Source of the DNA: Ruminococcus flavefaciens
Lineage (GTDB): Bacteria; Bacillota; Clostridia; Oscillospirales; Ruminococcaceae
Direction: 5' to 3' (one strand)
DNA: 64,000 nucleotides
Assembly: GCF_028725585.1 (NCBI RefSeq)
Contig: NZ_JAQYRV010000150.1
In this document: in pieces, positions 2,190 to 36,877 of the stretch
How the letters are laid out: every line of letters begins with the position of its first letter
How positions within the stretch are numbered: position 1 is the first letter of the stretch
The notes under the pieces: model-generated
Told to the model about the DNA's origin: nothing
The model's input: only the letters and a program-made list of their open reading frames with translations
Databases searched by the model: none
Made by a program: the position numbers and the translations under genes

Positions 2190-2219
2190 GTTATTTTCCT
2201 CCCTATATAGATAAAGCCA

Positions 2220-3902: not shown

Positions 3903-3970
3903 AAAAAACCTCCGCTTATTTTCTGAATATCATGCGTATCCGTCATACCCATAATATTCTAAAATTGTAC

Positions 3971-3998
3971 TTGAATTTTCCATAATTTATGTTATAAT
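3971..3998 (+). promoter_or_regulatory. Putative promoter of pilD
   Basis: TTGAAT (3971-3976), 16 bp spacer, TATAAT (3993-3998), with TGn extended -10. Confidence 0.6.
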
Positions 3999-4037
3999 AA
4001 GATTATGTACATTTTAATATGAAGGAGGGGTAAAATC

Positions 4038-4919: not shown

Positions 4920-4929
4920 ACTCCGAGAA

Positions 4930-4980
4930 AAAACAAAAAAATAAGTACAGGCAGCAGCATTGACTGCTGCCTGTTTTTTA
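4930..4980. terminator. Bidirectional intrinsic terminator between pilD and the minor pilin operon
   Basis: ACAGGCAGCAG-6 nt-CTGCTGCCTGT (4947-4974), with a T-tract on + and an A-rich tract upstream. Confidence 0.85.
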
Positions 4981-4984
4981 CTTA

Positions 4985-6013: not shown

Positions 6014-6031
6014 ATTACGTCCACCTCCACA

Positions 6032-6538: not shown

Positions 6539-6553
6539 AAGAACATTCCTCCT

Positions 6554-9730: not shown

Positions 9731-9797
9731 TTTTCTAACCGCCTTTCAAGTTATATCAACTTAATAACTATAGCGTATGATGTAGAAATTCCGCATC

Positions 9798-10601
9798 TTA
9801 ATTAGAAGGAACAGTATCAACATCCGGCTTTGCCATTTCATATACTGAGTAAAGTGTTATAGCAATTCTTACATCTGATGTATTTGATATTTTCTGTCCA
9901 CCAGCATCTACTGTTACCTCTTCGCCCTCTTTGCTTTCAGGAAGAGTTACATTTGCTGCCTTTGCCTTCTCCTGACCAAAGCTATAGTCAGAAATCGATA
10001 CCTGGTTGATCACAACCGACTTATCAAATTTCTTAAGTGCTTCAAGATAATCAAACACATTCTTCTTTGTACCGGTTATAGAAATTCCGTACTGTGTCTG
10101 AAGGATAGATTCTTTTGCTCTCTGTTCAACTGCTATGCTCTCTGCCATACGTGCATTCATTGCTTCTGCAAGTGAACCGTTGACATCAGCTGCATTTCTT
10201 AAATCAGCATCGTTATCCTTGATACTATTATAGTAGTATGATATCGGACTAAGCTTTGACTCAGCAAGCTCAACAGAATTTAATTTTACCTTTGTCTCTT
10301 CTGCAAACTTCTGCATATACTTATCAATAACGACAGGATTCTGAACATCACTTACAGGAACGAAGTTAGCTGTAAGTGCATTTGTATCATTATAGATATT
10401 AAGGATCTGCTCCTTTAAAGATGGGATCTGGTTGATCTTTGCTTCAATATCCTTTTTTGTCTTCTGAACATCTGAAAGAGATGCCTTATCTGCCTTGAGC
10501 TCTTTATTCTTAGGCTTGATCAGTGCAAAAAATCCCATAAGGAGAATAGCAACTGCTATAAGAATAGCTGCTATTATCTTATCTCTGTAATTAAGTTTCA
10601 T
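9798..10601 (-). CDS. pilO: PilO-like alignment protein
   Basis: Starts KLNYRDKIIAAILI with one N-terminal TM, then a coiled coil and a ferredoxin-like C-terminus (ISITGTKKNVFDYL); lies directly after pilMN. Confidence 0.7.
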   Translation of the reverse strand: MKLNYRDKIIAAILIAVAILLMGFFALIKPKNKELKADKASLSDVQKTKKDIEAKINQIPSLKEQILNIYNDTNALTANFVPVSDVQNPVVIDKYMQKFAEETKVKLNSVELAESKLSPISYYYNSIKDNDADLRNAADVNGSLAEAMNARMAESIAVEQRAKESILQTQYGISITGTKKNVFDYLEALKKFDKSVVINQVSISDYSFGQEKAKAANVTLPESKEGEEVTVDAGGQKISNTSDVRIAITLYSVYEMAKPDVDTVPSN

Positions 10602-10603
10602 TT

Positions 10604-12196
10604 TCAGTTAGCCTCCTCTGTGTTTTCAGAATTCTCTTCAGGATGATAAGCGCTCTTGAAACCTACAAGCTTTGCACTTGTATCAAATGCGATAACATCC
10701 TTCGGCTCTGCGCCTTCTTTTTCTTCTACGTTGATTCTGTATCCACTATAGGAAGAAGCACAGAATTTCGGATCATTAAGAATACTGTTAACATAATCCG
10801 AAGGAAGCTTCTGAGCATGCTCATCCTTATTCGCATCGCACTCTACATTAAATGTGATCGTACCATCTGAATACTGAGCATTCTTTACCTCGAAATTTTC
10901 GATCTTTTCTTCCTTACATCTCTCTTCAAGAAGTTTATCAAGTTCTTCATAAGCTGCTCCATCGATCACAGGCTGTGAAAGATAAGCATCATTTGCGTTA
11001 TTTACCTTTGTATAATAAGCATTAACTGTCTCTTTCATGTTGAGCAGACTCTGATGATGTGCAAGCTTCTGATTGGTTTCAGGGCTGTTTATAAACTCTT
11101 CGCACTTCTCGATATCATTCTTGATGCTCTTATCGCGAATAAGGAAACCGGCATATACACCGCCTACGATAGCAGCTGAACCGATAAGTGCTGCGAGCAT
11201 TGCTACATTTCCTGAGCTGTCGCTTCTGATCTTGTTTCTTACAGCTGTTCCCAGGTCAGTCTCAAGGAGGTTGATCTTTTCGATCTCTCTGTTACGCTTG
11301 AACATAGCGCCGATAGCGTTTGCATAAAGAGAGAACTCAAGATTTTCATGTCCGTGGATCTGTGGAGGAACATTGATAAGGCTGGTCTTAAGATCGAGCT
11401 TTTCAAGTTCATCTGTAAGTCTTACATACTCATGAGTATCACCGTAGAAGATTACATTCTCGATAGACTCACCTGTGTTACGGCTTCTGTGGAACTGAAG
11501 CATACGGAAGATATTCTCGTTAACGGCTTCGAATACGTAGTCGTCAGAATAACCGTAGTCAGCAGCATCGATAGAAGCGAAACGTGAGAATGAAAGCTGT
11601 CCCTGCTCATAGAGGTTGAGCGAGATGAAGTTGTTGTCGATCTGAACAGCGAGAAGAGGCATCTTTGATCTGATCTTTGTATCAGCAAGAAGAACCTTTG
11701 TGATACAGTTACAGCCGATCATAACTGATCTGAGGGAAATAGTCAGAAGCTTGAACATTTCTCTGTAGCTGTTTACGATCTCATAAGGACACGCTGTAGC
11801 GAGGATCTTGTACGAAGGCTCGCTTACTTCGCTGCTGTCTGCGTCACCGACTATGATGTATGACACGCTGTATGAATCATCAAGATTAAGCTCTGCCTGC
11901 ATCTGGAGCTTTACAGTCTTCTGAAGGTCCTGACCCTTGCCCTTGGCAACTGTCATTTCCTTAAAAATTGTAAGGTTGGAGGAGATCGAAACGATCGCTT
12001 CCTTATCAGGCATCTTGTGCATTTTAATAACATTGTTGATAAGAGTAGCAACTGCAGGAACATCCTTAACGTGTCCGTTAACGATAAGTCCCTCTTCTAC
12101 ATTTACAGTAGCAGCGGAATTGATCTTGATCTTTCCGTTGCCCTCAACGCCCTTAACAACTCGTATATTTCTATCAGTAATATCAAATGAAAGCAT
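10604..12196 (-). CDS. pilMN: PilM-PilN fusion protein
   Basis: Actin-like PilM region (LSFDITDRNIRVV, AVQIDNNFISL, VIFYGD), then one TM (AMLAALIGSAAIVGGVYAGFLI) and a PilN-like extracellular part. The fusion is known in clostridial T4P loci. Confidence 0.8.
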   Translation of the reverse strand: MLSFDITDRNIRVVKGVEGNGKIKINSAATVNVEEGLIVNGHVKDVPAVATLINNVIKMHKMPDKEAIVSISSNLTIFKEMTVAKGKGQDLQKTVKLQMQAELNLDDSYSVSYIIVGDADSSEVSEPSYKILATACPYEIVNSYREMFKLLTISLRSVMIGCNCITKVLLADTKIRSKMPLLAVQIDNNFISLNLYEQGQLSFSRFASIDAADYGYSDDYVFEAVNENIFRMLQFHRSRNTGESIENVIFYGDTHEYVRLTDELEKLDLKTSLINVPPQIHGHENLEFSLYANAIGAMFKRNREIEKINLLETDLGTAVRNKIRSDSSGNVAMLAALIGSAAIVGGVYAGFLIRDKSIKNDIEKCEEFINSPETNQKLAHHQSLLNMKETVNAYYTKVNNANDAYLSQPVIDGAAYEELDKLLEERCKEEKIENFEVKNAQYSDGTITFNVECDANKDEHAQKLPSDYVNSILNDPKFCASSYSGYRINVEEKEGAEPKDVIAFDTSAKLVGFKSAYHPEENSENTEEAN

Positions 12197-12217
12197 TTAT
12201 TCTTTCCACCTTTCCTT

Positions 12218-13417
12218 TTACTCGTTTTCGATGCTCTCCAGTGAGCCATAAAGTGCAGGGTATACACCACACACAACCATTCCTATGATAAGACCCATGA
12301 AGATAAGGAGGATAGGTTCTATCATACCTACAAGACGCTGAACAGCTGCATCTGATTCTTCTTCGTAGTAATCCGATGTCTTTTCAAGGATCGAATCAAG
12401 CGCACCGGACTCTTCGCCGACGTAAATAACCGAGCAGAACATAGGCTCGAATATTTCTGTACGTGTTATAGATGATGAAAGGGTCTCGCCCTGTTTTACC
12501 TCATCGACAACCGTTTCGAATTTCTCATCAACATATGAGTTGCCGAGAATAGCAGAAGCTCTCTGCAGGCACTCTACCATCGGGATACCGCTTGAGTAAA
12601 GTGAAGAAAGTGTTCTTGAAAAACGTCCTGTATATATCTTAGTGATAAGAGGACCAAATCCGGGTCCTTTTATGAGCATTCTGTCAAATTTCTTTCTGAA
12701 GCTCGGTATCTTCATAGCATATCTGAAGCCGAAAAATGCAGCTGCAAAAATAATAAGAAGTATGTACCACTTTGTCTTCAGGAAGTCACTGATAGCCGCC
12801 ATGATCTTTGTGAGAAGAGGCATCTTGCTCTTATCCTCGAACATACCGATGAAAGTAGGCATGATAACTGTAAAGAGGAAGATAACTATTACGATACAAA
12901 GCACGAGAAGTATGATAGGATAGATCATTGCACTTCTGATCGTATTCTTCAGCTTGTTTTCCTTTGCGTAGTGATCAGCCATTCGAGTCATGATGATATC
13001 CAGCGAACCACTGCTCTCGCCTGCGCCGACCATTGAAATAAGAAAGTCAGGGAATGAACCCGAGTGCATCTCGAGAGTTGACGAGAAAGACTCACCCTTC
13101 TGTACATTCTCGTAGATATCCTGCCAGATTGCCCTTGCTTTTTCATTCTCCTGCTCTTTGGTTAGGATATCGATGGCTTTTACAAGTGTAAGACCCGAAG
13201 TAAGCATCGCACTCAGCTGTCTACAGCAGAAGTTGAGTTCCTTCGTACCAAACTTGTAAATTGATTTTGCGTCACCTGAATCGCTTTCCTTATAATCCTT
13301 GACATACAAGCCTTTTTCTTTGGCTTTCTGTAAGAATTCCTGCTCATTCTCAGCATTGATGATTCCTTTTACCTGTCTGCTTTTTGCGTCCTGAGCTACA
13401 TAGGAAAAACTCTTCAT
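12218..13417 (-). CDS. pilC: Type IV pilus platform protein (T2SSF family)
   Basis: FCRQLSAMLTSGLTL, GAGESSGSL, AMIYPIILL, VGEESGALD and EPILLIFMG motifs. Confidence 0.95.
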   Translation of the reverse strand: MKSFSYVAQDAKSRQVKGIINAENEQEFLQKAKEKGLYVKDYKESDSGDAKSIYKFGTKELNFCCRQLSAMLTSGLTLVKAIDILTKEQENEKARAIWQDIYENVQKGESFSSTLEMHSGSFPDFLISMVGAGESSGSLDIIMTRMADHYAKENKLKNTIRSAMIYPIILLVLCIVIVIFLFTVIMPTFIGMFEDKSKMPLLTKIMAAISDFLKTKWYILLIIFAAAFFGFRYAMKIPSFRKKFDRMLIKGPGFGPLITKIYTGRFSRTLSSLYSSGIPMVECLQRASAILGNSYVDEKFETVVDEVKQGETLSSSITRTEIFEPMFCSVIYVGEESGALDSILEKTSDYYEEESDAAVQRLVGMIEPILLIFMGLIIGMVVCGVYPALYGSLESIENE

Positions 13418-26186: not shown

Positions 26187-26687
26187 ATGTCTAAAAAAGT
26201 TGCAGTTATCATGGGAAGCGACAGCGACTTCCCTGTTGTAAAATCAGCTCTTACTGAGCTTAAAAAATACGGCGTTGAGTTTGAGTGCCGTGTTATGAGC
26301 GCACACAGAACTCCTGCCGAAGCTTCTGAATTTGCTTCAAATGCAAAGGCTAACGGCTTCGGAGCTATCATCTGCGCCGCAGGTATGGCTGCTCACCTTG
26401 CAGGTGTAGTCGCAGGACATACAACACTTCCTGTTATCGGCATACCAATGAAATCAAAGGCACTTGAGGGCGTTGACGCTCTTCTGGCTACAGTAATGAT
26501 GCCTCCCGGAGTACCTGTTGCTACCGTAGGCATTGACGGCGCAAAGAATGCTGCTGTTCTTGCTGTACAGATGCTCGCTATCTCTGACGATGAGCTTGCT
26601 GCAAAGCTTGCTGCCGAGAAAAAGGCTATGGCTGACGGCGTTATCGCCAAGGACAAGGCTCTCCAGGAGCAGATAGCAGCACTCTGA
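26187..26687 (+). CDS. purE: N5-CAIR mutase / AIR carboxylase
   Basis: [38 protein letters not shown] motifs. Confidence 0.97.
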
Positions 26688-26726
26688 CACACACTTAAAC
26701 CACTTTCACCCAAAGGAGGTCAAAAT

Positions 26727-27383
26727 ATGACACCTTCAGAAAGAAAAGAACATTCAGAAAAGATACTTAGGGAAAAGGGAATAAGCATTAATCCAAATCT
26801 TCCTCTTACAGAAGAGGTATCGCAGATAAAATTGAAAAGTCTTGATGATATCTGCAAAAGAGGCATCGCCGCTTTACTGTCTACTCAGATAGGCATAGAA
26901 GTAAGCGAAAAGCGCACAGACAATCTCAATACCTTTATAAGACTTATGGAGCACTTCGGCGTTTATGACAATCTCAATGCAAAGGAGTCGCGCCTTGTAA
27001 ACGGTGAGGCTTCTCAGCAGGACGTTATCGACATAGTCTGGGAGTATGAATGCTACTGGTCACTGCTCTGGGCACTGGGGATAGTTGACGATATCACAGA
27101 CTCAAGCAAGATATGCGACTGTGAAATGGCAATACGCTCTGTATCACAGTGCGAGGACTTTGAAGACTTCAAGAGCAGATGCAATTTAAGAAGTGCAGAT
27201 GAGATCATGGATATGCTGGACCTTTACTACCGTTATCACTGGGCTGTTGTTCAGCATGAGCACATCGACAGCAATTGTTCTGTTGGTGATCTAAGCGGTG
27301 ATGTGGTATATGAGCGCAGACGCGGCCTTGAATGGCTGGTTTGCGATACCTCCGACTGGCACGATATATCACTTGATACATGA
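26727..27383 (+). CDS. DUF4272-like protein
   Basis: WEYECYWSLLWALG, LDLYYRYHWA and VVYERRRGLEWL resemble DUF4272 as I recall it. Confidence 0.7.
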   Translation: MTPSERKEHSEKILREKGISINPNLPLTEEVSQIKLKSLDDICKRGIAALLSTQIGIEVSEKRTDNLNTFIRLMEHFGVYDNLNAKESRLVNGEASQQDVIDIVWEYECYWSLLWALGIVDDITDSSKICDCEMAIRSVSQCEDFEDFKSRCNLRSADEIMDMLDLYYRYHWAVVQHEHIDSNCSVGDLSGDVVYERRRGLEWLVCDTSDWHDISLDT

Positions 27384-28030
27384 TGAAAAATTTTGATACA
27401 CTTTTATTCGACCTTGACGGTACTCTCACCGATTCTACAGAGGGCATACTCAAATGCCTGATAAATGCTGTTGAAAAAATGGGATTTGAAGTTCCCGAGG
27501 ATACGAATAAATTTCTCGGTCCGCCTATCCGTCAGTCCTTTGCCGAGTTCATCGGCATGAACGAGGAACAGATCGACGAAGCCGTAAGGATATTCCGCGA
27601 AAGATACTCCACTGTGGGGCTTTTTGAGAACCGCGTATATGAGGGTATCCCCGAAATGCTGGAACGGCTGAAAAAGGCTGGCAAAAGGCTCATGGTAGCC
27701 ACAAGCAAGCCTGAGGTCTATGCGGTCCGCATACTTGAAAGGTTCGGCATTGCGCCTTACTTTGAAATAGTCGGCGGCGCAGAGCTTGACGGCTCTCGTG
27801 ACTATAAACATGAAGTAATAGAGTATGTTCTCGCAAAAGCGGATATCACCGACAGAAGCCGCGTGCTTATGATAGGTGACCGCAGACAGGACGTTCTCGG
27901 CGCTCATAAGACAGGTCTGAAATGCATGGGCATCCTCTGGGGCTACGGCTCAGCAGAAGAGCTTGATGAAGCAGGCGCTGACTTTATCGCAGATACACCA
28001 AAAAATACAGCAGATATGTTAATTACATGA
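27380..28030 (+). CDS. HAD-superfamily phosphatase (subfamily IA)
   Basis: FDLDGTLTDS, ATSK and MIGDRRQD motifs; ATGA overlap with the upstream gene. Confidence 0.92.
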   Translation: MMKNFDTLLFDLDGTLTDSTEGILKCLINAVEKMGFEVPEDTNKFLGPPIRQSFAEFIGMNEEQIDEAVRIFRERYSTVGLFENRVYEGIPEMLERLKKAGKRLMVATSKPEVYAVRILERFGIAPYFEIVGGAELDGSRDYKHEVIEYVLAKADITDRSRVLMIGDRRQDVLGAHKTGLKCMGILWGYGSAEELDEAGADFIADTPKNTADMLIT

Positions 28031-28046
28031 TACAGGAGGAAGCGAT

Positions 28047-28271
28047 ATGTTTGATAAAGAAAAGAAGCCACAAAAACGCGGACGTTTTATTATCACACAT
28101 GAACAGCGACTTGAAAGAACCATGGGTTTCGGCGCAGTTCAGATAATTGTTGACACAGAAACAGGTGTTAATTACATAAACACTGTCGGTGATGCATACT
28201 CAGGTATCACACCGCTTCTCGGCTCAGACGGCAAAGTCGTTGTGACTCCCATTTCAGACGAGATCGAATAA
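28047..28271 (+). CDS. Small hypothetical protein (DUF6440-like)
   Basis: GGAGG RBS; IIVDTETGVNY...GITPLLGSDGK. Confidence 0.7.
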   Translation: MFDKEKKPQKRGRFIITHEQRLERTMGFGAVQIIVDTETGVNYINTVGDAYSGITPLLGSDGKVVVTPISDEIE

Positions 28272-28343
28272 GCCTACAATTTCCGCGATGATGCGGAATT
28301 GCATATATAATCATTTATATAATTCTCAAGGAGGAATTTTAAA

Positions 28344-29063
28344 ATGTCAAACATCGAAAAGAAGGAACAGCTCTATGAGGGCAAGGCAAAAAAGGTATAC
28401 GCAACAAATGATCCTGATCTCGTTATCGTAGATTACAAGGACGACGCAACAGCTTTCAACGGCGAAAAGAAGGGCACTATCGCAGGCAAGGGTGTTATCA
28501 ATAACAAAATGACAAACTTCATGTTCAAGATGCTCGAAAAGGAAGGCGTACCTACTCACCTTGTAGAGGAGATCAGTGACCGTGAGACTATCGTTAAGAA
28601 GGTCTCTATCGTTCCCCTTGAGGTAATCATCAGAAACGTTGCAGCAGGCAGCTTCTCTAAGAGAATGGGCGTTGAAGAAGGCAAAAAGCTCCTCTGCCCT
28701 ATCCTCGAATTCAGCTATAAGAACGACGATCTCGGTGATCCTTTCATCAACGATTACTACGCACTGGCTCTCGGTATCGCTACTAAGGAAGATCTCGACA
28801 CTATTTCTAAATACGCTTTCAAGGTAAATGAGTTCATGGTTAAGTTCTTCAAGGGACTCAACATAGACCTCATCGACTTCAAGATCGAGTTCGGTAAAAC
28901 TTCTGACGGTACTATCATCCTCGCTGACGAGATCTCACCTGATACCTGCCGTTTCTGGGATTCTACAACTCACGAAAAGCTCGACAAGGACCGTTTCCGC
29001 AGAGATATGGGCGGCGTAGAAGAAGCTTATCAGGAAATCATGAAGAGACTTATGGGAGAATAA
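28344..29063 (+). CDS. purC: SAICAR synthetase
   Basis: [48 protein letters not shown] motifs. Confidence 0.98.
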
Positions 29064-29067
29064 TCGT

Positions 29068-30492
29068 ATGGGTGGTTTTTTTGGTGCAGCCTCTAAAAAC
29101 GACTGCGTTACTGACGTTTTCTTCGGCACAGACTATCATTCACACCTCGGCACAAGAAGAGGCGGTATGACTTCATGGTCTGAAGAGAATGGCTTTCAGA
29201 GAAATATCCATAGTATCGAAAATTCTCCTTTCCGCACTAAATTTGAAAACGATGTTGTAAATATGAGAGGCAAGCTCTGTATCGGCTGTATCAGCGATAC
29301 AGACCCTCAGCCTATCCTCGTCCGTTCAAAGCTCGGACTCTATGCTGTATGCTCTGTAGGCATAATCCGCAACGCAGATGCTCTTGTAAATGAGCTTCTC
29401 GAAAAGGGCTGCGCTAACTTTGAGTCAATGAGCAGCGGAAATATCAACTCAGGTGACCTTATCGGTGCTCTTATCGCACAGAAGAACAGCTTTGTTGACG
29501 GTATCCGCTATGCACAGGAAAAGATAGAGGGAACAATGTCGCTCATTATCCTCACTAAAAACAGCATTATCGCTGCAAGAGATAAATTCGGCAGACTTCC
29601 TATAATCATAGGCAGAAGAAGCGACGGCTACTGCCTTTCTACTGAGTCATTCGCATTCCAGAAGCTGGGATACACCACTTACAAGGAGCTTGAAGCAGGT
29701 GAGATCGCTGAGCTTACAGCTGACGAGTGCAAAACACTTGCCGAGGGCGATCCTTCAAAGATGAAGATATGCACCTTCCTCTGGACTTACTACGGCTATC
29801 CTAACGCTGTTTATGAGGGCGTAAACGTTGAAGTTATGCGTACAAGAAACGGCGAGATCATGGCGGAAAATGACATCAAGAACGGCAGACTCCCCGATGT
29901 TGACTATATCTGCGGTGTGCCTGATTCGGGTACTCCTCACGCTATCGGCTATGCCAACAGAAGCGGTATACCTTTCGCAAGACCATTCATCAAGTATACC
30001 CCAACATGGCCAAGAAGCTTCATGCCTACAAACCAGAGCATGAGAAATCAGGTAGCAAAGATGAAGCTCATCCCCGTTCACGATCTTATCAACGGCAAAA
30101 AGCTCCTCTTTGTTGACGACAGTATCGTAAGAGGTACTCAGATGAGAGAGACTGTTGAGTTTCTCTATGAGCACGGCGCTAAGGAAGTTCATATGCGTTC
30201 TGCCTGTCCGCCTATAATGTACGGCTGCAAATACCTCAACTTCTCACGCAGCACTTCCGAAATGGAGCTTATCGCACGCCAGATAATCGACGAATTTGAA
30301 GGTCCTGACGGAATAAAGTATATAGACGAGTACAGCACATCTGCTACTGAAAGAGGCAAACGACTCAGAGATGAGATCTGCAAGCGTCTCCGTCTTACAT
30401 CACTTGAGTTCCAGACACTTGAGGGTACAGAAAAGGCTGTAGGTCTTGATACCTGCGGACTCTGCACTTACTGCTGGAACGGCAAAGAATAA
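29068..30492 (+). CDS. purF: Amidophosphoribosyltransferase homolog lacking the N-terminal catalytic Cys
   Basis: GVPDSG and PRPP loop VDDSIVRGT present; Fe-S-type Cys in KICTF, SACPP and CTYC. The N-terminus is MGGFFG rather than MCG. Confidence 0.93.
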   Translation: MGGFFGAASKNDCVTDVFFGTDYHSHLGTRRGGMTSWSEENGFQRNIHSIENSPFRTKFENDVVNMRGKLCIGCISDTDPQPILVRSKLGLYAVCSVGIIRNADALVNELLEKGCANFESMSSGNINSGDLIGALIAQKNSFVDGIRYAQEKIEGTMSLIILTKNSIIAARDKFGRLPIIIGRRSDGYCLSTESFAFQKLGYTTYKELEAGEIAELTADECKTLAEGDPSKMKICTFLWTYYGYPNAVYEGVNVEVMRTRNGEIMAENDIKNGRLPDVDYICGVPDSGTPHAIGYANRSGIPFARPFIKYTPTWPRSFMPTNQSMRNQVAKMKLIPVHDLINGKKLLFVDDSIVRGTQMRETVEFLYEHGAKEVHMRSACPPIMYGCKYLNFSRSTSEMELIARQIIDEFEGPDGIKYIDEYSTSATERGKRLRDEICKRLRLTSLEFQTLEGTEKAVGLDTCGLCTYCWNGKE

Positions 30493-30507
30493 TTTATTGC
30501 AACCGAT

Positions 30508-30580
30508 TGTAGGGGCTGGCGTCCTCGACAGCCCGTAATTACATAATTTTTGCGGGACGTTGAGGACGCCGTCCCCTACA
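30508..30580. repeat. GTAG-type REP doublet (REPIN-like inverted repeat)
   Basis: TGTAGGGGCTGGCGTCCTCGACAGCCCGT (30508-30536) and an inverted near-copy (30552-30580) flank a 15-nt AT-rich spacer. Confidence 0.75.
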
Positions 30581-30601
30581 TTTATTCATGGAGGTAAATC
30601 A

Positions 30602-31639
30602 ATGAACAACAGTTTTTCCGAAAGCTATAAGAAAGCAGGCGTTGACGTAACCGCCGGATATAAGTCAGTTGAACTTATGAAGCAGCACATCGCCCGTACT
30701 ATGATAAAGGGCGCTCTGTCAGGTATCGGCGGCTTCGGCGGTCTTTTTGAGCTTGACCTTACAGGTATCAGCAAGCCTGTCCTCGTATCGGGTACAGACG
30801 GCGTAGGTACTAAGATCAAGATCGCTTTCATCATGGACAAGCATGATACTGTAGGTATCGACTGTGTTGCTATGTGCGTAAACGATATCATCTGCTGCGG
30901 TGCTAAGCCACAGTTCTTCCTCGATTATATTGCCTGCGGCAAGAATTATCCCGAGAAGATCGCAACTATCGTATCAGGCGTTGCAGAGGGCTGTGTACAG
31001 GCAGAATGTGCACTCATCGGCGGTGAGACTGCTGAACACCCGGGTCTTATGCCTGAGGACGAATACGACCTTGCAGGCTTCTCAGTAGGTGTTGTTGACA
31101 AGGACAAGATCCTCCAGCCTGATACTCAGAAGGCAGGCGATGTCCTCATAGCTATCAAGTCAAGCGGCGTTCACTCAAACGGCTTCTCTCTCGTAAGAAG
31201 AGTTTTCAATGTAAACGAGCAGAATCTCGCTATGCACTTCGATGATCTCGGAACTACTCTCGGCGAATGCCTGCTGACTCCTACACGCATCTATGTAAAG
31301 GCTGTTATGAGCCTTCTTGACGCTGTAAAGGTAAAGTCTATCTCACATATCACAGGCGGCGGCTTCTATGAGAATATCCCTCGTTCACTTCCAAAGAACC
31401 TTGCTGCAAAGATCGAAAGAAATTCTGTACAGGTGCTTCCTATCTTTGATCTTATCCAGAGAACAGGAGATATCCCTGAGCGTGATATGTTCAATACCTT
31501 CAATATGGGTGTCGGCATGATAGTATCTGTCGACAAAAATGACGCTGACAAGGCTGTTGCAGCTATCAAGGCTGCAGGTGAAGATGCTTACGTTCTCGGC
31601 GAACTCGTTGAGTCTGAGGAAGGCGTTATCATCTGCTGA
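30602..31639 (+). CDS. purM: AIR synthetase
   Basis: Start at ATG 30602 (GGAGG). [47 protein letters not shown] motifs. Confidence 0.98.
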
Positions 31640-31772
31640 TAAAGCAAGTATCAGTTTAAACATCATAGCATTATCCGCAAAATTATCCGAATTCAGTATT
31701 TTATGAACTATCCGCATGATATCTCACGAAAAAATGACAATGGGGTATGGGATTTGGAAATTTTAAAAGGTA

Positions 31773-32654
31773 GTGATGTTTATGAAAAAAGGTAAATTAA
31801 CAGCTGTGGGACTGCTCTGCGCTGTCCTCACAGCAACTCCCATATACTGCGGAGCTTCTTCCGAGATACCTATGGACTATAATTCCGACGGTATCGTTGA
31901 CTGCTTTGACCTTATTTCAGCAAGGAAAAGCGATGCGTCAAAGAAAGAACTGAGAGAGCTTCAGAACTTTATACTCGGAAAAACTCCTGTTCAGTTTGAG
32001 GTACAGACCGACAATCCTATCGACGAAAGCTGTATCCTTGAGCCTAAGGGTACGGTACATACTGGCGAAGGCACTTTCTACGGCGGCGGCTATACAGGCG
32101 GTCATGCCATGCTTGACCCTGTTTCCCACGATTACTGGATTGTTGCGATGAATCACTCTGATTACAACGAAGCTCAGCTTGCAGGTGCTTATCTCGAAGT
32201 CACAGGCGAGCTGGGTACTATAAAAATGCTCGTTACAGACGAGCTCCCCGAAGGCAAAAAGGGCGACCTTGACCTGTATACAGACGCTTTTCCGCTCATC
32301 GCTCCTGTTGAGAAAGGAAGAGTCCCTGTAAGCTGGAAGATAATACCGCTCGATACTGCTGAGGACGCTCCTATCTCCTTCAAATACAAAGAGGGCAGTA
32401 CAGAATACTGGTGCGGAGTACAGGTGCGCAATCACCGCTACCCCATCACTAAGCTGGAATATCTTAATGAAGACGGCGAATTCGTTGAGATAAAACGCCG
32501 CCCATACAATTATTTTGAATCCCGTGATATGGGAAAAGGTCCTTTCACATTCCGCATAACCGATATCTACGGTCAGGTAGTCATCGACAAGGATATCCCG
32601 CTGTCATATGATGATACGGAAATAATTCCCGGACACGTACAGTTCCCCGAATAA
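31773..32654 (+). CDS. Secreted dockerin-bearing bacterial expansin-like protein
   Basis: Signal peptide, dockerin-like DYNSDGIVDCFDL...LQNFILGK, DPBB domain (GEGTFY, DLDL) and CBM63-like domain (YWCGVQVRNHRYPI). Start is 31773-31782. Confidence 0.88.
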   Translation: MMFMKKGKLTAVGLLCAVLTATPIYCGASSEIPMDYNSDGIVDCFDLISARKSDASKKELRELQNFILGKTPVQFEVQTDNPIDESCILEPKGTVHTGEGTFYGGGYTGGHAMLDPVSHDYWIVAMNHSDYNEAQLAGAYLEVTGELGTIKMLVTDELPEGKKGDLDLYTDAFPLIAPVEKGRVPVSWKIIPLDTAEDAPISFKYKEGSTEYWCGVQVRNHRYPITKLEYLNEDGEFVEIKRRPYNYFESRDMGKGPFTFRITDIYGQVVIDKDIPLSYDDTEIIPGHVQFPE

Positions 32655-32678
32655 TCAGGGCTACAGAAAGGAAAGATC

Positions 32679-33086
32679 ATGGGCATCGGTTTTATTGTTT
32701 TCGGCTTGCTTATACTCGCCGCAGGACTTTTTATCTGCTATGTAAAACGCGCACAGCTGAAAAACGCTGTAACTGTTTCAGCCGTTATCACAGGAAATCT
32801 CGAAAAGAAAAAGCGTTCGAAATATGTTATTGAAACTGTTTACTGTCCTGTTGTCGAATATGAAAAAGACGGCAAAAGGATAACTGCCGAGCACTTTGAA
32901 TATATGAGCAGCTTTGCGCTCCAACACCGCGTCGGCGATACAGTTCTCATATATGTTGATCCGCAAATGCAGAAAAAATTCCGGTTCATTGAGGAAGGAA
33001 AAGGTCCTGACCTGCTGGGAGTTGCTGTAGCAGTCGGCGGTGCGGTGATAATACTGTTCGGTATTATCGGTCTTGTAATAATATAA
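32679..33086 (+). CDS. Two-TM membrane protein (DUF3592-like)
   Basis: N- and C-terminal TMs around an OB-like loop (YCPVVEYEKDG...VGDTVLIYVDP). Confidence 0.65.
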   Translation: MGIGFIVFGLLILAAGLFICYVKRAQLKNAVTVSAVITGNLEKKKRSKYVIETVYCPVVEYEKDGKRITAEHFEYMSSFALQHRVGDTVLIYVDPQMQKKFRFIEEGKGPDLLGVAVAVGGAVIILFGIIGLVII

Positions 33087-33123
33087 ACAGAATGCTGTAT
33101 ATCAGCTTTCACGGAGGAAAAAT

Positions 33124-33747
33124 ATGAAAAATATAGTCGTTCTCGTATCAGGCGGCGGTACTAATCTACAGGCGCTCATTGATGCGGAAAAATCAGGCAT
33201 TATCAAGGGCGGAAAGATCACCTGCGTGATAGCCTCTAAGGAGGGCGTATACGCTCTTGAAAGGGCGGCGCAGAACGGCATAAAAAGCCGCGTTATACCG
33301 CGAAAGGAGTACGCTGATATAGCGTCCTACACCAAGGCAGTCACAGACGCTCTCATCGAGGAAAAGGCAGACCTTGTAGTATATGCGGGATTCATGACCA
33401 TACTCGACGAGCAGGTAGTAAAGGCGTTCCCATATAAGATGATGAACGTTCATCCTGCACTGATACCAAGCTTCTGCGGAAAGGGCTTCTACGGACTTCA
33501 CGTCCATGAGGCTGCTCTTGCAGCAGGAGTGAAGCTCTCAGGCGCAACAGTACATTTCGTAACCGAGGAGTGTGACGGCGGACCGATAATAATACAGAAG
33601 GCTGTCCCCGTAGAAAACGGTGATACTCCCGAGTCACTTCAAAAGCGCATAATGGAACAGGCTGAGTGGAAGATACTCCCCGAGGCTGTGTCGCTGTTCT
33701 GTCAGGACAGGATAGAGATACAGGACGGAAAGGCATACGTAAAATAA
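33124..33747 (+). CDS. purN: Phosphoribosylglycinamide formyltransferase
   Basis: VSGGGTNLQALID, YAGFM, NVHPALIPSF, GATVHFV and DGGPII motifs. Confidence 0.97.
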   Translation: MKNIVVLVSGGGTNLQALIDAEKSGIIKGGKITCVIASKEGVYALERAAQNGIKSRVIPRKEYADIASYTKAVTDALIEEKADLVVYAGFMTILDEQVVKAFPYKMMNVHPALIPSFCGKGFYGLHVHEAALAAGVKLSGATVHFVTEECDGGPIIIQKAVPVENGDTPESLQKRIMEQAEWKILPEAVSLFCQDRIEIQDGKAYVK

Positions 33748-33749
33748 AA

Positions 33750-34313
33750 ATGAAGATAAAGGAATTATTGGAAAAACAAACTGTTCAGAAGCTGTTTCTC
33801 TGCTTCTGGATGTATTCTGTACTCGGCTGGCTGTATGAGGTCTTCCTCGAAGTCGTAGTATACAAATGGGGTTTTACAAACGTCGGAATAATGTACGGAC
33901 CATACTGCCCGATATACGGTGTCGGCGCACTGCTGTTCCTGCTGTTTTTCGGACGTTTTATGAAAAAAGAAGGCGGCATAGGTCTGAAATTGTCGCGTCC
34001 GTTCATCATATTCTTCGGCTGTATGATAGTTGCTACTACCGTAGAGCTTCTGGGCACATACGTGCTGGAATTCTTTATCGGCTCATGGCCCTGGGATACA
34101 TATGCGGACTATGACATCAATTTTCAGGCAAGAATAGCACTTTCCCCTTCTCTCCGATTTGGAATGGGCGGTGTGCTGTTCATGTACTTTGTACAGCCTT
34201 TCTATGACTGGCTTCTCGCAAAGCCAAAGCGCAAAACTCTCAACATCATAACTCTTATAGTGCTTATCGGTGTTGTTACAGATTTCATTCTCACATTGAT
34301 ATTCAGACACTGA
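33750..34313 (+). CDS. Putative ABC-transporter-permease-family membrane protein (CmpB-like)
   Basis: YSVLGWLYEV...GPYCPIYGVG...VELLG...WDTY motifs. Start moved to ATG 33750. Confidence 0.7.
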   Translation: MKIKELLEKQTVQKLFLCFWMYSVLGWLYEVFLEVVVYKWGFTNVGIMYGPYCPIYGVGALLFLLFFGRFMKKEGGIGLKLSRPFIIFFGCMIVATTVELLGTYVLEFFIGSWPWDTYADYDINFQARIALSPSLRFGMGGVLFMYFVQPFYDWLLAKPKRKTLNIITLIVLIGVVTDFILTLIFRH

Positions 34314-34350
34314 TATTCTGATAAACCATTATCCGAAAGGAGTCATTATT

Positions 34351-35064
34351 ATGAAAAAGCTTGATTTAGCACAGGAACTCAGCACAAACGCTTACCCGGG
34401 AAGAGGTATCGTTATCGGTAAATCCGACTGCGGAAAGTACGCTGTTACAGCATACTTCATCATGGGCAGAAGCGAAAACAGCCGTAACCGCGTATTCATC
34501 GAGGACGGCAAGGGCATACGCACAGAGGCTTTCGATCCTTCAAAGCTCACTGATCCCCACCTTATCATCTACGCTCCTGTAAGAGTTCTCGGAAATAAGC
34601 TCATCGTCACAAACGGCGACCAGACTGATACTATCTATGAGCTTATGGACAAGCAGTACACATTCGAGCAGGCTCTCCGCACACGCGAATTTGAGGACGA
34701 TGCTCCTAACTTTACTCCTCGTATTTCAGGTATACTCCGTTTCGGTGAAGAGGGCTTCAACTACGCTATGTCTATCCTCAAAAGCGCTAACGGCAACCCC
34801 GACTCATGCCAGAGATACACATTCAGCTATACAAATCCTATTGCAGGCGAGGGTCACTTCATTCATACATATATGGGCGACGGCAATCCGCTCCCAAGCT
34901 TTGAGGGTGAGCCTAAGCTCGTAGGCATCAGCAGTAATATCGACCAGTTCACAGATATGCTCTGGAACAATCTCAACGCTGACAACAAGGTATCTCTCTT
35001 CGTTCGCTATGTGAACCTTGAAACAAATGCCGAGGAGACACGTATCGTAAACAAGAACAAGTAA
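34351..35064 (+). CDS. Stand-alone IMP cyclohydrolase (PurO-like fold)
   Basis: YPGRGIVIG, YFIMGRSENSRNR, LIIYAPV, NGDQTD, FEDDAPNFTPRISG, FIHTY motifs. Confidence 0.88.
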   Translation: MKKLDLAQELSTNAYPGRGIVIGKSDCGKYAVTAYFIMGRSENSRNRVFIEDGKGIRTEAFDPSKLTDPHLIIYAPVRVLGNKLIVTNGDQTDTIYELMDKQYTFEQALRTREFEDDAPNFTPRISGILRFGEEGFNYAMSILKSANGNPDSCQRYTFSYTNPIAGEGHFIHTYMGDGNPLPSFEGEPKLVGISSNIDQFTDMLWNNLNADNKVSLFVRYVNLETNAEETRIVNKNK

Positions 35065-35066
35065 TA

Positions 35067-35585
35067 ATGGATATCATAAAGATACAGTGCCCTTACTGCG
35101 GCGCAAGTGTCGAAAGAAAAAACGATGAATACTTCGGAGTCTGCCCTTACTGCGGCTCTGAGGTATGCTTCAACGATGCAAAGGCTGAAGCTGAGGTCAA
35201 TGATCTCCGCGGTCAGTTAAATACCCTTGACCAGCGCCTTGATGAAGAAAAGCAGTATAAACAGAAGCTTGCAGTATGGGAGAAAAAGCGCAGCAGAATG
35301 TACATCATCACTGGTATAATGGCATTTTTAGGATTTCTGTTTGTAACTCTCAGCGAAGACTCAGAGGGCGCGCTCATTGCCATAGGCGTTATGCTGTTAT
35401 TCGGAGCGGTCATAGGACTTATCTTTTTCTCTATTCTCAGAGCTGCCGACTGCCCTAAGCCCAATAATGGCGGAGACGCTCAGAGCACGATCAATTTTTT
35501 CAAAATATTCGGCATAGGAGTGCTGATACTCTGCGGTGCAGCTTTCCTCTCGATCATTTTTTATGGTATGCTGGGAAAACGATAA
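35067..35585 (+). CDS. Double zinc-ribbon membrane protein
   Basis: CPYCG twice, a coiled coil and three predicted TMs. Confidence 0.7.
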   Translation: MDIIKIQCPYCGASVERKNDEYFGVCPYCGSEVCFNDAKAEAEVNDLRGQLNTLDQRLDEEKQYKQKLAVWEKKRSRMYIITGIMAFLGFLFVTLSEDSEGALIAIGVMLLFGAVIGLIFFSILRAADCPKPNNGGDAQSTINFFKIFGIGVLILCGAAFLSIIFYGMLGKR

Positions 35586-35597
35586 ACAAGCTGAATA

Positions 35598-35625
35598 ATT
35601 ATGCATTAAGCATTATGAATTATGA
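35598..35625. repeat. Heptamer tandem repeat (ATTATGM-like) x4
   Basis: ATTATGC-ATTAAGC-ATTATGA-ATTATGA, just upstream of the purH RBS. Confidence 0.7.
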
Positions 35626-35649
35626 ATCAATATAAGGAGGACATTAACA

Positions 35650-36831
35650 ATGTCAAATGAAATGCAGTTAAAATACGGCTGTAACCCAAATCAGAAGCCT
35701 TCAAGAGTTTACATGGCTGACGGCAGCGAGCTTCCTATCGAGGTGCTCTGCGGCAAGCCCGGCTATATCAACCTTCTTGACGCTTTCAACGGCTGGCAGC
35801 TCGTTAAGGAGCTGAAGGCTGCTACAGGTATGTGTGCAGCTACTTCATTCAAGCACGTTTCCCCTGCAGGTGCTGCTATCGGCAGACCTCTCAGCGACGA
35901 CCTCAAGAAGATCTACTGGGTAGATGATCTTGGTGAGCTTTCTCCCCTTGCAAGCGCTTATGCAAGAGCAAGAGGCGCTGACAGAATGTCCTCTTACGGC
36001 GATTTCATCGCTCTCTCTGACAAGGTAGACGTTTGCACAGCAAAGATGATACAGCGTGAGGTATCCGACGGCGTTATCGCTCCCGACTATGACCCTGAGG
36101 CTCTTGAAATACTCAAGTCAAAGAGAAAGGGCACTTACTGCATACTCAAAATGGACGAGAACTACAAGCCTGCTCCTATCGAGACAAAGCAGGTCTACGG
36201 CGTATCCTTCGAGCAGGGACGCAATGAGCTCGATATCAACCGTGAGCTCCTCGCAAACGTTGTTACAAACAACAAGGATATCCCTGACGATAAGAAGGAC
36301 GACCTCCTTATCTCTCTCATCACTCTCAAATACACACAGTCAAACTCTGTATGCTATGTAAAGGACGGACAGGCTATCGGTATCGGTGCAGGTCAGCAGT
36401 CACGTATCCACTGCACACGTCTTGCAGGACAGAAGGCTGATAACTGGTGGCTGAGACAGTCTCCACAGGTTATGGGACTCCAGTTCGTTGACGATATCCG
36501 CCGTGCAGACCGCGACAACGCTATCGATGTTTACATCGGCGATGAGTACGAGGACGTTCTCCGTGAGGGCGAGTGGCAGCGTATCTTCAAGGTTAAGCCT
36601 GCTGTATTCACAAGAGAGGAAAAGAAGGCTTGGCTCGCTAAGAATACAGGCGTTTGCCTCGGTTCAGACGCTTTCTTCCCATTCGGTGACAACATTGAGC
36701 GTGCTAAGAAGTCAGGCGTTGAGTATATTGCAGAGCCGGGCGGTTCTATCCGTGATGACAACGTTATCGAGACCTGCAATAAGTACAACATCGCAATGGC
36801 ATTCACAGGCATTCGCCTTTTCCACCACTAA
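35650..36831 (+). CDS. purH: AICAR transformylase (PurH transformylase domain only)
   Basis: LKYGCNPNQ, SFKHVSPAG, KYTQSNSV, GAGQQSR, SDAFFPF, EPGGSIRD and RLFHH motifs. No N-terminal IMP cyclohydrolase domain. Confidence 0.92.
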   Translation: MSNEMQLKYGCNPNQKPSRVYMADGSELPIEVLCGKPGYINLLDAFNGWQLVKELKAATGMCAATSFKHVSPAGAAIGRPLSDDLKKIYWVDDLGELSPLASAYARARGADRMSSYGDFIALSDKVDVCTAKMIQREVSDGVIAPDYDPEALEILKSKRKGTYCILKMDENYKPAPIETKQVYGVSFEQGRNELDINRELLANVVTNNKDIPDDKKDDLLISLITLKYTQSNSVCYVKDGQAIGIGAGQQSRIHCTRLAGQKADNWWLRQSPQVMGLQFVDDIRRADRDNAIDVYIGDEYEDVLREGEWQRIFKVKPAVFTREEKKAWLAKNTGVCLGSDAFFPFGDNIERAKKSGVEYIAEPGGSIRDDNVIETCNKYNIAMAFTGIRLFHH

Positions 36832-36846
36832 TTCAACAACAACTCG

Positions 36847-36877
36847 GCTGCGGTCAGCATTTGACCGCAGCTTTTTT
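36847..36877 (+). terminator. Intrinsic terminator after purH
   Basis: GCTGCGGTCA-5 nt-TGACCGCAGC followed by T6. Confidence 0.9.

What the first reader, a model, noticed from the sequence alone, without database searches (positions are those of the whole stretch)
29068..30492. PurF without the catalytic Cys1: a possibly ammonia-only amidophosphoribosyltransferase
Seen: the gene begins ATG GGT GGT TTT TTT GGT (M-G-G-F-F-G), with Gly where PurF has CG(I/V)FG. The PRPP loop (VDDSIVRGT) and Fe-S-type cysteines are intact, and the gene sits between purC and purM. Established: Ntn amidotransferases need an N-terminal Cys1 to hydrolyse glutamine, and Cys1 mutants of PurF keep NH3-dependent activity. 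Inference: this enzyme starts purine synthesis from free ammonia, which fits an ammonia-rich rumen or gut, or it borrows NH3 from a separate glutaminase. I recall MGGFFG-type PurFs in other gut anaerobes but know of no characterisation.
Basis: partly seen in the sequence, partly recalled or inferred. Interest (0 to 1): 0.75.

Follow-up and report, generated by a model that had tools for sequence, protein, structure and literature searches.

The report
Glutaminase-dead PurF in purine operon
The gene in the purF slot of this rumen bacterium's purine operon belongs to a large, uncharacterised branch of PurF that has lost everything needed to use glutamine but keeps its PRPP site, so it most likely starts purine synthesis directly from ammonia.

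Summary
ORF 29068-30492 (474 aa) starts MGGFFG, and an in-frame stop at 29041 rules out an earlier start. It lies between purC and purM in a purE...purH cluster of a Ruminococcus flavefaciens-like genome.

The change is much larger than Cys1->Gly:
- Arg26 is Leu.
- The Arg73/Tyr74/Thr76 glutamine loop is 8 residues shorter.
- Asn101 and Asp127 are replaced.
- PRPP-binding residues, PRTase-side ammonia-channel residues and all four Fe-S cysteines are conserved.

The AlphaFold2 model (pLDDT 92) superposes on B. subtilis PurF at TM 0.82-0.85. Position 2 is Gly or Ser, never Cys, in 79 species (Gly codons GGC/GGA/GGT). Both domains are under purifying selection (dN/dS about 0.05-0.1).

The clade is old and occurs in Clostridia, Bacteroidales and Archaea. 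It fails the curated purF model (187 vs 350 bits). I found no published characterisation.

Related genomes show three operon states: canonical purF only, the two genes in tandem, and this gene only. That pattern fits paralogous displacement.

Best reading (about 0.6): an ammonia-dependent PRPP amidotransferase. Not shown: enzyme activity, and whether a canonical purF lies elsewhere in this genome.

The parts
29068..30492 (+). purF-like gene ('purFx'), 474 aa, starting MGGFFG. It has a two-domain PurF fold with a glutaminase-dead N-domain and an intact PRTase domain.
   Evidence: AF2 model pLDDT 92.4. Foldseek TM 0.82-0.85 to 1AO0, 1GPH and 6LBP.
29054..29059 (+). Shine-Dalgarno-like GGGAGA, 8 nt before the ATG.
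   Evidence: Read directly. The in-frame TGA at 29041-29043 excludes a longer ORF.
29071..29073 (+). GGT codon for Gly2, at the position of the catalytic Cys1 of PurF.
   Evidence: Alignments. Codon survey (GGC 41, GGA 19, GGT 18, AGC 1 in 79 species).
29068..29757 (+). N-terminal Ntn-type domain (aa 1-230) without glutaminase residues: Arg26->Leu27, Asn101->Val97, Asp127->Ser128.
   Evidence: Site table. dN/dS 0.08-0.105 in the closest pairs. Mean identity 62.5% across 79 species.
29287..29298 (+). C-I-S-D (aa 74-77), the site where the canonical Arg73-Tyr74-Pro-Thr76-...-Gly glutamine loop is 8 residues shorter.
   Evidence: MAFFT alignment, gap in 26 of 26 family members. The profile-HMM alignment to 1AO0 shows the same 8-residue gap.
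29758..30489 (+). Type I phosphoribosyltransferase domain (aa 231-474). The equivalents of Lys326, Arg332, Lys349, Asp366, Asp367, Ser368, Arg371, Gly372 and Thr373 are conserved, as are channel residues Phe254, Tyr258, Phe334 and Leu415.
   Evidence: dN/dS 0.05-0.095.
30112..30141 (+). PRPP-binding loop VDDSIVRGTQ (aa 349-358). The final Gln replaces the canonical Thr374 in 25 of 26 family members.
   Evidence: The pattern [DE]DS[ILW]VRG[TN]Q matched more than 600 stretches in species-representative genomes.
29770..29772 (+). Cys235 codon, equivalent to B. subtilis Fe-S ligand Cys236.
   Evidence: 26 of 26 conserved.
30226..30228 (+). Cys387 codon, equivalent to B. subtilis Fe-S ligand Cys382.
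   Evidence: 26 of 26 conserved.
30463..30474 (+). Cys466 and Cys469 codons (C-T-Y-C), equivalent to B. subtilis Fe-S ligands Cys437 and Cys440.
   Evidence: 25 of 26 and 26 of 26 conserved.
30280..30366 (+). Family-specific insertion of about 29 aa (aa ~405-433), predicted helical and absent from canonical PurF.
   Evidence: profile positions 394-423 unmatched in 1AO0. Helices 402-423 and 428-441 in the model.
28344..29063 (+). purC (SAICAR synthetase), immediately upstream.
   Evidence: PF01259, E 1e-91.
30602..31639 (+). purM (AIR synthetase), immediately downstream. The likely start is ATG 30602 after GGAGG.
26187..36831 (+). The pur cluster: purE, DUF4272, HAD, purC, purFx, purM, unknown ORF, purN, CmpB-like, IMP cyclohydrolase (PurO type), unknown ORF, purH (AICARFT). 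A terminator-like hairpin follows at 36846-36872.
   Evidence: The synteny is conserved in almost all 80 related loci.
30508..30580 (+). Long hairpin in the purFx-purM spacer, at the place where some relatives carry canonical purF.
   Evidence: -55 kcal/mol, z -7.5. (single copy in the window).

Best explanation
The gene encodes a member of an old, widespread and uncharacterised clade of [4Fe-4S]-type PurF homologues, here called PurFx. Its N-terminal Ntn domain can no longer bind or hydrolyse glutamine. Its phosphoribosyltransferase domain, its flexible loop and the PRTase half of the ammonia channel are intact. It most likely catalyses PRPP + NH3 -> 5-phosphoribosylamine + PPi using free ammonia. 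It would thus serve as the first enzyme of the purine operon in place of glutamine-dependent PurF. Shown: loss of the glutaminase residues, conservation of the PRTase and Fe-S residues, the PurF fold, purifying selection on both domains, and conserved placement in the purF slot. Inferred: NH3 as the nitrogen donor; entry of NH3 through the emptied glutamine pocket, opened by the 8-residue loop deletion and Cys1->Gly; a structural or regulatory role for the retained N-domain; and the advantage, namely saving the ATP spent on glutamine synthesis in ammonia-rich rumen and gut habitats.
For: Glutaminase site lost across the family: Cys1 in 0 of 26, Arg26->Leu in 21 of 26, glutamine loop 8 residues shorter in 26 of 26, Asn101 kept in 1 of 26, Asp127 in 0 of 26. 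The profile alignment confirms this independently. PRTase and channel residues and the four Fe-S cysteines are conserved in 24-26 of 26 (Asp366 is Asp 17/Glu 8; Gly372 and Thr373 are 23 of 26). Full-length PurF fold: pLDDT 92.4, TM 0.82-0.85 to 1AO0. dN/dS is 0.05-0.1 in both domains. The order purE-purC-purFx-purM-purN-purO-purH recurs in nearly all of 80 species-level loci. In this clade three operon states exist: canonical purF only (L091), tandem purFx+purF spaced 0-50 nt or overlapping, in both orders, and purFx only (this window and most loci). This is the pattern expected for functional displacement. PRPP synthetase lies directly after purFx in Paludicola sp. MB14-C6. purL lies directly before it in Muribaculaceae. 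Cys1 mutants of E. coli PurF lose glutamine use but keep NH3 use (Mei & Zalkin 1989 via PMC3261824). Fibrolytic rumen bacteria require ammonia (PMC12993626). There is no second purF in the window, and no R. flavefaciens-labelled protein among the 120 closest relatives of a Ruminococcus canonical PurF.
Against: No enzymatic or genetic data exist for any member in the literature I could search. In 9 of 80 related species a canonical Cys1 purF sits beside purFx, so purFx may not suffice alone under all conditions, or the two may act together. The rest of this genome was not visible, so a canonical purF elsewhere is not excluded. Within Oscillospirales the N-terminal segment G2-G6, D22-G28 and Q44-F59 are at least 97% conserved, which is more than a passive ammonia funnel obviously needs. 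Thr374->Gln, the altered flexible loop (KYTPxWxRS) and the 29-aa insertion could reflect a changed substrate or changed regulation. Archaeal members (PolD-purFx-TctA) and a metagenomic contig (L095) whose protein cluster is labelled Coprobacillus sp. are not in pur operons.
Confidence: 0.6

Rival explanations
1. PurFx is catalytically active at its PRTase site but does not use bulk ammonia. It would receive NH3 from a partner protein, either canonical PurF in a mixed oligomer or another glutaminase such as PurQ/PurL.
For: Tandem, tightly spaced or overlapping purFx-purF pairs occur in 9 of 80 species. purL with its glutaminase domain is adjacent in Muribaculaceae. The strongly conserved N-domain surface could be a docking site.
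Against: Most of the 65 loci with both flanks visible have no purF or glutaminase gene beside purFx. Three operon states, including purFx only, argue that it can stand alone. No conserved glutaminase neighbour was seen.
Confidence: 0.13
2. PurFx is not the PRA-forming enzyme. It would be a regulatory pseudoenzyme, or a PRTase with a different acceptor, kept in the pur operon, while a canonical purF elsewhere in the genome does the first step.
For: It scores only 187 bits against a cut-off of 350 for the purF equivalog model. It has family-specific changes at Thr374->Gln, in the flexible loop and a 29-aa insertion. Some members lie outside pur operons. The genome outside the window is unseen.
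Against: All PRPP-binding and catalytic-loop residues and the hydrophobic channel residues are conserved under strong purifying selection, which a pseudoenzyme would not need. The gene occupies exactly the purF slot, and canonical purF is missing from that slot in most relatives. A prs gene is adjacent in Paludicola.
Confidence: 0.12
3. PurFx still hydrolyses glutamine or another amide with a replacement nucleophile, for example Ser1/Thr1 as in other Ntn hydrolases.
For: Ser or Thr occupies position 2 in 23 of 75 diverse representatives. The N-domain is under purifying selection.
Against: This protein and 78 of 79 related species have Gly, which has no side chain. The oxyanion Asn101 and the substrate-binding Arg73 and Asp127 are gone, and the loop is deleted. 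No family-wide new polar constellation exists: H24 and D22 vary across the wider family.
Confidence: 0.03
4. Artefact: a sequencing error (GGT for TGT) or a wrong start codon hides a normal PurF.
For: GGT and TGT differ by one base.
Against: An in-frame stop lies 27 nt upstream. Gly is encoded by three different codons in 78 of 79 species. Four other glutaminase features are also missing.
Confidence: 0.01

Closest known systems
Bacillus subtilis-type [4Fe-4S] glutamine PRPP amidotransferase PurF (EC 2.4.2.14; PDB 1AO0/1GPH; TIGR01134)
   Same: The same two-domain fold (TM 0.82-0.85). The same four Fe-S cysteine ligands, PRPP loop, flexible-loop Lys/Arg and hydrophobic channel residues. The same slot in the clostridial pur operon.
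   Different: No Cys1, Arg26, Arg73/Tyr74 loop, Asn101 or Asp127. No propeptide. Thr374->Gln. A C-terminal insertion of about 29 aa. About 28% identity. It scores 187 bits against the 350-bit cut-off.
E. coli PurF Cys1 substitution mutants (Mei & Zalkin 1989, as cited in PMC3261824)
   Same: They lack the N-terminal nucleophile. They lose glutamine-dependent activity but keep NH3-dependent PRA synthesis. This is the functional precedent for what PurFx is proposed to do.
   Different: Those are laboratory point mutants of a non-Fe-S enzyme with the rest of the glutamine site intact. PurFx is a natural, ancient lineage with the whole site remodelled.
Mlab_0150, the Ser-for-Cys purF paralogue of Methanocorpusculum labreanum (Brown et al. 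2011, PMC3261824)
   Same: A natural purF-like gene without the catalytic Cys, noted as unlikely to be a glutamine amidotransferase and left unexplained.
   Different: It was described as a recent duplicate of the organism's own purF that co-exists with it. It is not known to belong to the PurFx clade, and I did not have its sequence to test this.
Ammonia-dependent counterparts of glutamine amidotransferases, e.g. AsnA versus AsnB and NH3-dependent NAD synthetase NadE (my own knowledge)
   Same: The same logic: the synthase reaction is run with free NH3 instead of glutamine-derived NH3, typically where ammonia is plentiful.
   Different: Those enzymes either lack the glutaminase domain altogether or are unrelated folds. 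PurFx keeps a conserved but catalytically emptied glutaminase domain.

Membership tests
PurF, glutamine PRPP amidotransferase (TIGR01134 equivalog) | Whole-protein score at or above the curated cut-off (350 bits) | tested here: not met
   186.7 bits, aligned only over residues 77-426.
PurF, glutamine PRPP amidotransferase | N-terminal catalytic Cys1, exposed by Met or propeptide removal | tested here: not met
   Gly2. No upstream start is possible. 0 of 26 family members have Cys.
PurF, glutamine PRPP amidotransferase | Glutamine-site residues Arg26, Arg73, Tyr74, Asn101/Gly102 and Asp127 | tested here: not met
   Leu27, loop shortened by 8 residues, Val97 (Gly98 kept), Ser128.
PurF, glutamine PRPP amidotransferase | Two-domain fold: Ntn alpha-beta-beta-alpha sandwich plus type I PRTase | tested here: met
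   AF2 pLDDT 92.4. Foldseek TM 0.82-0.85 to 1AO0, 6LBP and 1ECB.
PurF, glutamine PRPP amidotransferase | PRPP-binding loop (DDSIVRGTT), PPi loop (PDS), flexible-loop Lys326, Arg332 and Lys349 | tested here: met
   D350, D351, S352, R355, G356, T357 (then Q358 instead of T), P285-D286-S287, K309, R316, K333.
PurF, glutamine PRPP amidotransferase | Glutamine-dependent (and NH3-dependent) PRA synthesis activity | not testable with these tools
   Needs an enzyme assay.
PurF, B. subtilis [4Fe-4S] subclass | Four cysteine ligands (Bs Cys236, 382, 437, 440) | tested here: met
   Cys235, 387, 466 and 469. Conserved in 25-26 of 26 family members.
PurF, B. subtilis [4Fe-4S] subclass | N-terminal propeptide ending just before Cys1 | tested here: not met
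   The protein starts M-G-G-F-F-G. The tandem canonical copies in relatives do have ...HEEC|GVFG.
Class II (Ntn) glutamine amidotransferases (Pfam GATase_2/6/7) | Domain homology | tested here: met
   GATase_7, 31.2 bits against a cut-off of 25. Structural matches to GlmS glutaminase domains.
Class II (Ntn) glutamine amidotransferases | N-terminal nucleophile | tested here: not met
   Gly at the N-terminus.
De novo purine biosynthesis operon member | Conserved co-location with pur genes across species | tested here: met
   purE-purC-X-purM-purN-purO-purH in nearly all 80 loci. Also next to purL in Muribaculaceae and next to prs in Paludicola. Not in archaeal contigs.

The most novel reading that the evidence does not exclude
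PurFx would be the only phosphoribosylamine-forming enzyme of R. flavefaciens and of many gut and rumen Clostridia and Bacteroidales. The committed step of purine synthesis in these organisms would then be strictly ammonia-dependent and uncoupled from the glutamine pool. That would help explain the classical ammonia requirement of fibrolytic rumen bacteria. The retained, highly conserved pseudo-glutaminase domain would have been repurposed as an ammonia entry or nitrogen-sensing module.
Probability: 0.4. Interest if true: 0.75.

Novelty: new variant of a known kind. Interest (0 to 1): 0.6.

Why it matters
PurF is the textbook committed, glutamine-dependent step of purine synthesis. If a large clade of anaerobes runs this step on free ammonia, several things follow. 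Metabolic reconstructions that annotate these genes simply as EC 2.4.2.14 mis-state the nitrogen donor. Nitrogen and energy budgets of rumen and gut fermenters change, because one ATP per purine is saved by bypassing glutamine synthetase. Glutamine-analogue inhibitors would not hit this step in these organisms. The long-known ammonia dependence of cellulolytic rumen bacteria would gain a concrete molecular component. The family is also a natural experiment for amidotransferase channel biology, since it keeps the synthase half and the channel but has an emptied glutaminase pocket. The hypothesis can be tested with one protein preparation and one complementation experiment.

Tried and rejected
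1. Upstream start or propeptide supplying a Cys: rejected, because of the in-frame TGA at 29041.
2. Sequencing error GGT for TGT: rejected.
3. A new metal or catalytic site in the conserved D22-Y-H24-S-H26 motif: H26 and G28 are simply the canonical His25 and Gly27. D22 and H24 vary (N/Q/L) across the wider family, so no family-wide HxH site exists. I dropped this as a leading idea.
4. A decaying relic N-domain: rejected, because dN/dS is 0.08-0.105 and identity is 62.5%.
5. A riboswitch or other known RNA upstream of or inside the cluster: none at Rfam gathering thresholds.
6. A second purF in the window: none (tblastn).
7. Whether R. flavefaciens has a canonical purF elsewhere: this could not be settled. 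The single genome-collection scan went on the family survey. A search with a Ruminococcus canonical PurF found no R. flavefaciens-labelled hit among the top 120 or in ten cluster look-ups.
8. Context of distant representatives P0133 and P0137: the contigs are too short to be informative.
9. Literature: ten full-text searches found no characterisation of a Cys-less PurF clade. Several were noisy and uninformative.
10. Model coordinates are not exposed, so I could not measure pocket or channel geometry in the AF2 model.
Full report
**1. The observation**

The ORF at 29068-30492 (+) reads ATG GGT GGT TTT TTT GGT ... and encodes 474 aa. A GGGAGA Shine-Dalgarno lies 8 nt upstream. The same frame carries TGA at 29041, with no start or Cys codon in between, so neither an earlier start nor a propeptide can supply a Cys. 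purC ends at 29063, and purM starts about 110 nt downstream (ATG 30602).

The wider cluster is purE, DUF4272, a HAD hydrolase, purC, this gene, purM, an unknown ORF, purN, a CmpB-like membrane protein, a PurO-type IMP cyclohydrolase, an unknown ORF and purH (AICARFT). A terminator-like hairpin closes it at 36846.

The closest homologues are 'amidophosphoribosyltransferase' of Ruminococcus flavefaciens at 96% identity. A GH9+CBM3 cellulase elsewhere in the window fits that organism.

**2. It is not a point change**

I checked my B. subtilis and E. coli PurF sequences against PDB 1GPH/1AO0 and 1ECB. I then aligned them with this protein and 29 diverse relatives and tabulated the functional positions.

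Positions in the strict family of 26 sequences:

| Canonical feature | State in the family |
|---|---|
| Cys1 | Never Cys (S 11, G 9, others) |
| Arg26 | Leu in 21 of 26 |
| Loop with Arg73, Tyr74, Thr76 | 8 residues shorter in 26 of 26 |
| Asn101 (oxyanion) | Kept in 1 of 26 |
| Asp127 | Kept in 0 of 26 |
| PPi loop P-D-S | Conserved |
| Lys326, Arg332, Lys349 (flexible loop) | Conserved |
| Asp366, Asp367, Ser368, Arg371, Gly372, Thr373 | Conserved |
| Channel residues Phe254, Tyr258, Phe334, Leu415 | Conserved |
| Four B. subtilis Fe-S ligands | Conserved (24-26 of 26 for most PRTase-side positions; Asp366 is Asp 17/Glu 8; Gly372, Thr373 and the P-D-S proline are 23 of 26) |

An independent profile-HMM alignment of the family to 1AO0 reproduces three things. 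Position 2 aligns with Cys1. The same 8-residue gap appears. A family-specific insertion of about 29 aa lies near the C-terminus.

Family-specific signatures are Thr374->Gln (25 of 26), a KYTPxWxRS flexible loop and the insertion.

Curated models do not capture the family. TIGR01134 gives 187 bits against a cut-off of 350 and aligns only from residue 77. Pfam gives a weak GATase_7 hit and a sub-threshold Pribosyltran hit.

**3. It is a real, folded, selected protein**

AlphaFold2 on the family alignment gives pLDDT 92.4 and pTM 0.91. Foldseek places the model on B. subtilis, Arabidopsis and E. coli PurF over its whole length, with TM 0.80-0.85.

Across 79 species-level genomes the residue at position 2 is Gly 78 times and Ser once. 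The codons are GGC 41, GGA 19, GGT 18 and AGC 1.

Mean pairwise identity is 62.5% for the N-domain and 71.8% for the PRTase domain. For canonical PurFs of the same clade the values are 76.9% and 80.5%.

In the closest pairs (dS about 0.9-1.2), dN/dS is 0.08-0.105 for the N-domain and 0.05-0.095 for the C-domain. dS is near saturation, so these values are approximate. The emptied glutaminase domain is therefore still under strong constraint.

**4. How wide the family is**

A search of 1.84 billion cluster representatives returned 150 top hits (at least 197 bits, against 158 bits for B. subtilis PurF). Nearly all share the Cys-less N-terminus M-[GSTA]-G-x-x-G ... G-T-D-Y-H-S-H-L-G.

Named members include:
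- Oscillospiraceae, Acutalibacteraceae, Christensenellales and Lachnospiraceae
- Coprobacillus
- Paludicola sp. MB14-C6, Cuneatibacter sp. NSJ-177 and Evtepia gabavorous
- Muribaculaceae, i.e. Bacteroidales
- Two contigs with archaeal replication genes such as PolD, Cdc6 and IF5A

A neighbour-joining tree, without support values, shows the strict family as one clade within the Fe-S-type PurFs. Its basal relatives are partial. For example, P0222 keeps Cys1 and QHRGQ but already lacks the Arg73 loop and Asn101. This suggests stepwise loss.

**5. Genomic context**

In the 80 best genome loci the order purE-(purC)-purFx-purM-purN-purO-purH is almost invariant.

In 9 of 80 loci a second purF lies directly beside purFx, in either order, 0-50 nt away or overlapping (L092). 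The eight of these copies that could be read in full (the ninth, in L026, runs off the end of its contig) are canonical. They have a propeptide ending ...HEE-C|GVFG, followed by LQHRGQE.

Look-ups of canonical PurFs from the same clade show an operon with canonical purF only (L091) and operons with both genes (L089, L092).

Three states therefore co-exist among close relatives: canonical only, both, and purFx only. The window is in the third state. This is the signature of paralogous displacement, in which purFx can take over the operon's purF role.

Further links to the PRPP-to-PRA step:
- In the complete genome of Paludicola sp. MB14-C6, PRPP synthetase follows purFx directly.
- In Muribaculaceae, purL precedes it.

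**6. Mechanism proposed**

Shown: the glutaminase machinery is gone. The PRTase machinery, the hydrophobic channel lining on the PRTase side and the Fe-S site are kept. The gene sits where purF sits.

Established knowledge: E. coli PurF without Cys1 cannot use glutamine but still uses NH3 (Mei & Zalkin 1989, cited in PMC3261824).

Inference: PurFx makes phosphoribosylamine from PRPP and free NH3. The loss of the Cys1 side chain and of the 8-residue loop that normally closes over glutamine probably leaves an open path into the channel. The N-domain is retained for folding, oligomerisation, loop and channel formation, or regulation.

The habitat fits. Fibrolytic rumen bacteria require ammonia (PMC12993626; also classical work by Bryant, from my own knowledge). 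Bypassing glutamine saves the ATP spent by glutamine synthetase.

**7. What speaks against it, and what stays open**

- No biochemical or genetic study of any member turned up in ten full-text searches.
- The tandem canonical copy in about one species in eight shows that purFx and PurF are not simply redundant. They may be isozymes for high and low ammonia, or partners.
- I could not search the rest of this genome. A search with a Ruminococcus canonical PurF found no R. flavefaciens-labelled protein among the 120 closest relatives or in ten cluster look-ups.
- Within Oscillospirales the old active-site region (G2-G6, D22-G28, Q44-F59) is at least 97% conserved. That hints at a function beyond a passive funnel.
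- Across the wider family only residues shared with canonical PurF, plus Tyr23 and Ser76, stay conserved. I therefore do not propose new chemistry.
- Members outside pur operons (archaeal contigs, and a contig whose protein cluster is labelled Coprobacillus sp.) may do something else.

**8. Comparison and verdict**

The protein works like an E. coli PurF Cys1 mutant and like other ammonia-dependent counterparts of amidotransferases.

It is a homologue of Fe-S-type PurF. It fails the defining glutaminase features and the curated equivalog threshold. It should therefore not be filed as a glutamine PRPP amidotransferase.

It is best described as a new, uncurated variant of a known kind: a probable ammonia-dependent PRPP amidotransferase.

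Its interpretation is partly supported: the inference is strengthened by the residue and synteny evidence, but activity, and whether this is the only purF in the genome, remain untested.

Noticed in passing
window 30508-30580: A stem-loop of roughly 28 paired bases (RNA MFE -55 kcal/mol for the folded stretch, z -7.5) fills the spacer between purFx and purM, with no T-run after it. It sits exactly where some Ruminococcus relatives carry canonical purF. It is a single copy in the window. Its role (mRNA processing or stability element, REP-like repeat, or deletion scar) is unknown.
   Followed up: partly
window 31773-32654: A 293-aa ORF with no Pfam hit is inserted between purM and purN. It is present only in the closest relatives (L001-L004). 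By eye its N-terminus looks like a signal peptide followed by a dockerin-like repeat (DYNSDGIVDCFDL). This was not tested.
   Followed up: no
window 26727-28030: A DUF4272 protein and a HAD-family hydrolase sit between purE and purC inside the pur cluster. A HAD gene occupies the same place in L092. It could be a nucleotide or sugar-phosphate phosphatase linked to purine metabolism.
   Followed up: no
L006, L008, L009, L010, L018, L024, L026, L048, L055; L089, L092: Tandem purFx plus canonical Cys1 purF, in both gene orders, 0-50 nt apart or overlapping by 4 nt. This suggests co-translation and possibly a mixed oligomer.
   Followed up: partly
L094 (Paludicola sp. MB14-C6, CP133133.1) 8001-10695: PRPP synthetase (prs) is inserted directly after purFx within the pur operon.
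   Followed up: no
L086 4882-6297; L088 10001-11386: Two contigs with archaeal genes share the arrangement PolD large subunit - purFx - TctA. This is a conserved context outside any pur operon and remains unexplained.
   Followed up: no
P0222, P0216, P0265, P0270 (alignment A1): These lineages are basal to the family and show partial states. P0222 keeps Cys1 and QHRGQ but already lacks the Arg73 loop and Asn101. The others have Ala or Thr at position 1 and keep QHRG- or EH-type motifs, without the C-terminal insertion. Loss of the glutaminase site seems to have been stepwise.
   Followed up: partly
window 34351-36831: IMP synthesis is split between a PurO-type IMP cyclohydrolase (PF07826) and a purH that carries only the AICARFT part. 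This arrangement is conserved in nearly all related loci.
   Followed up: no
window 1089-13417 and 47913-50591: Other genes in the window: a type IV pilus/T2SS-like cluster (T2SSE ATPase, PilM-like, and a 1058-aa ORF with no Pfam hit) and a GH9 cellulase with CBM3. The window also holds UvrC, GroEL, a HisKA kinase, an HtrA-like protease and SecY.
   Followed up: no
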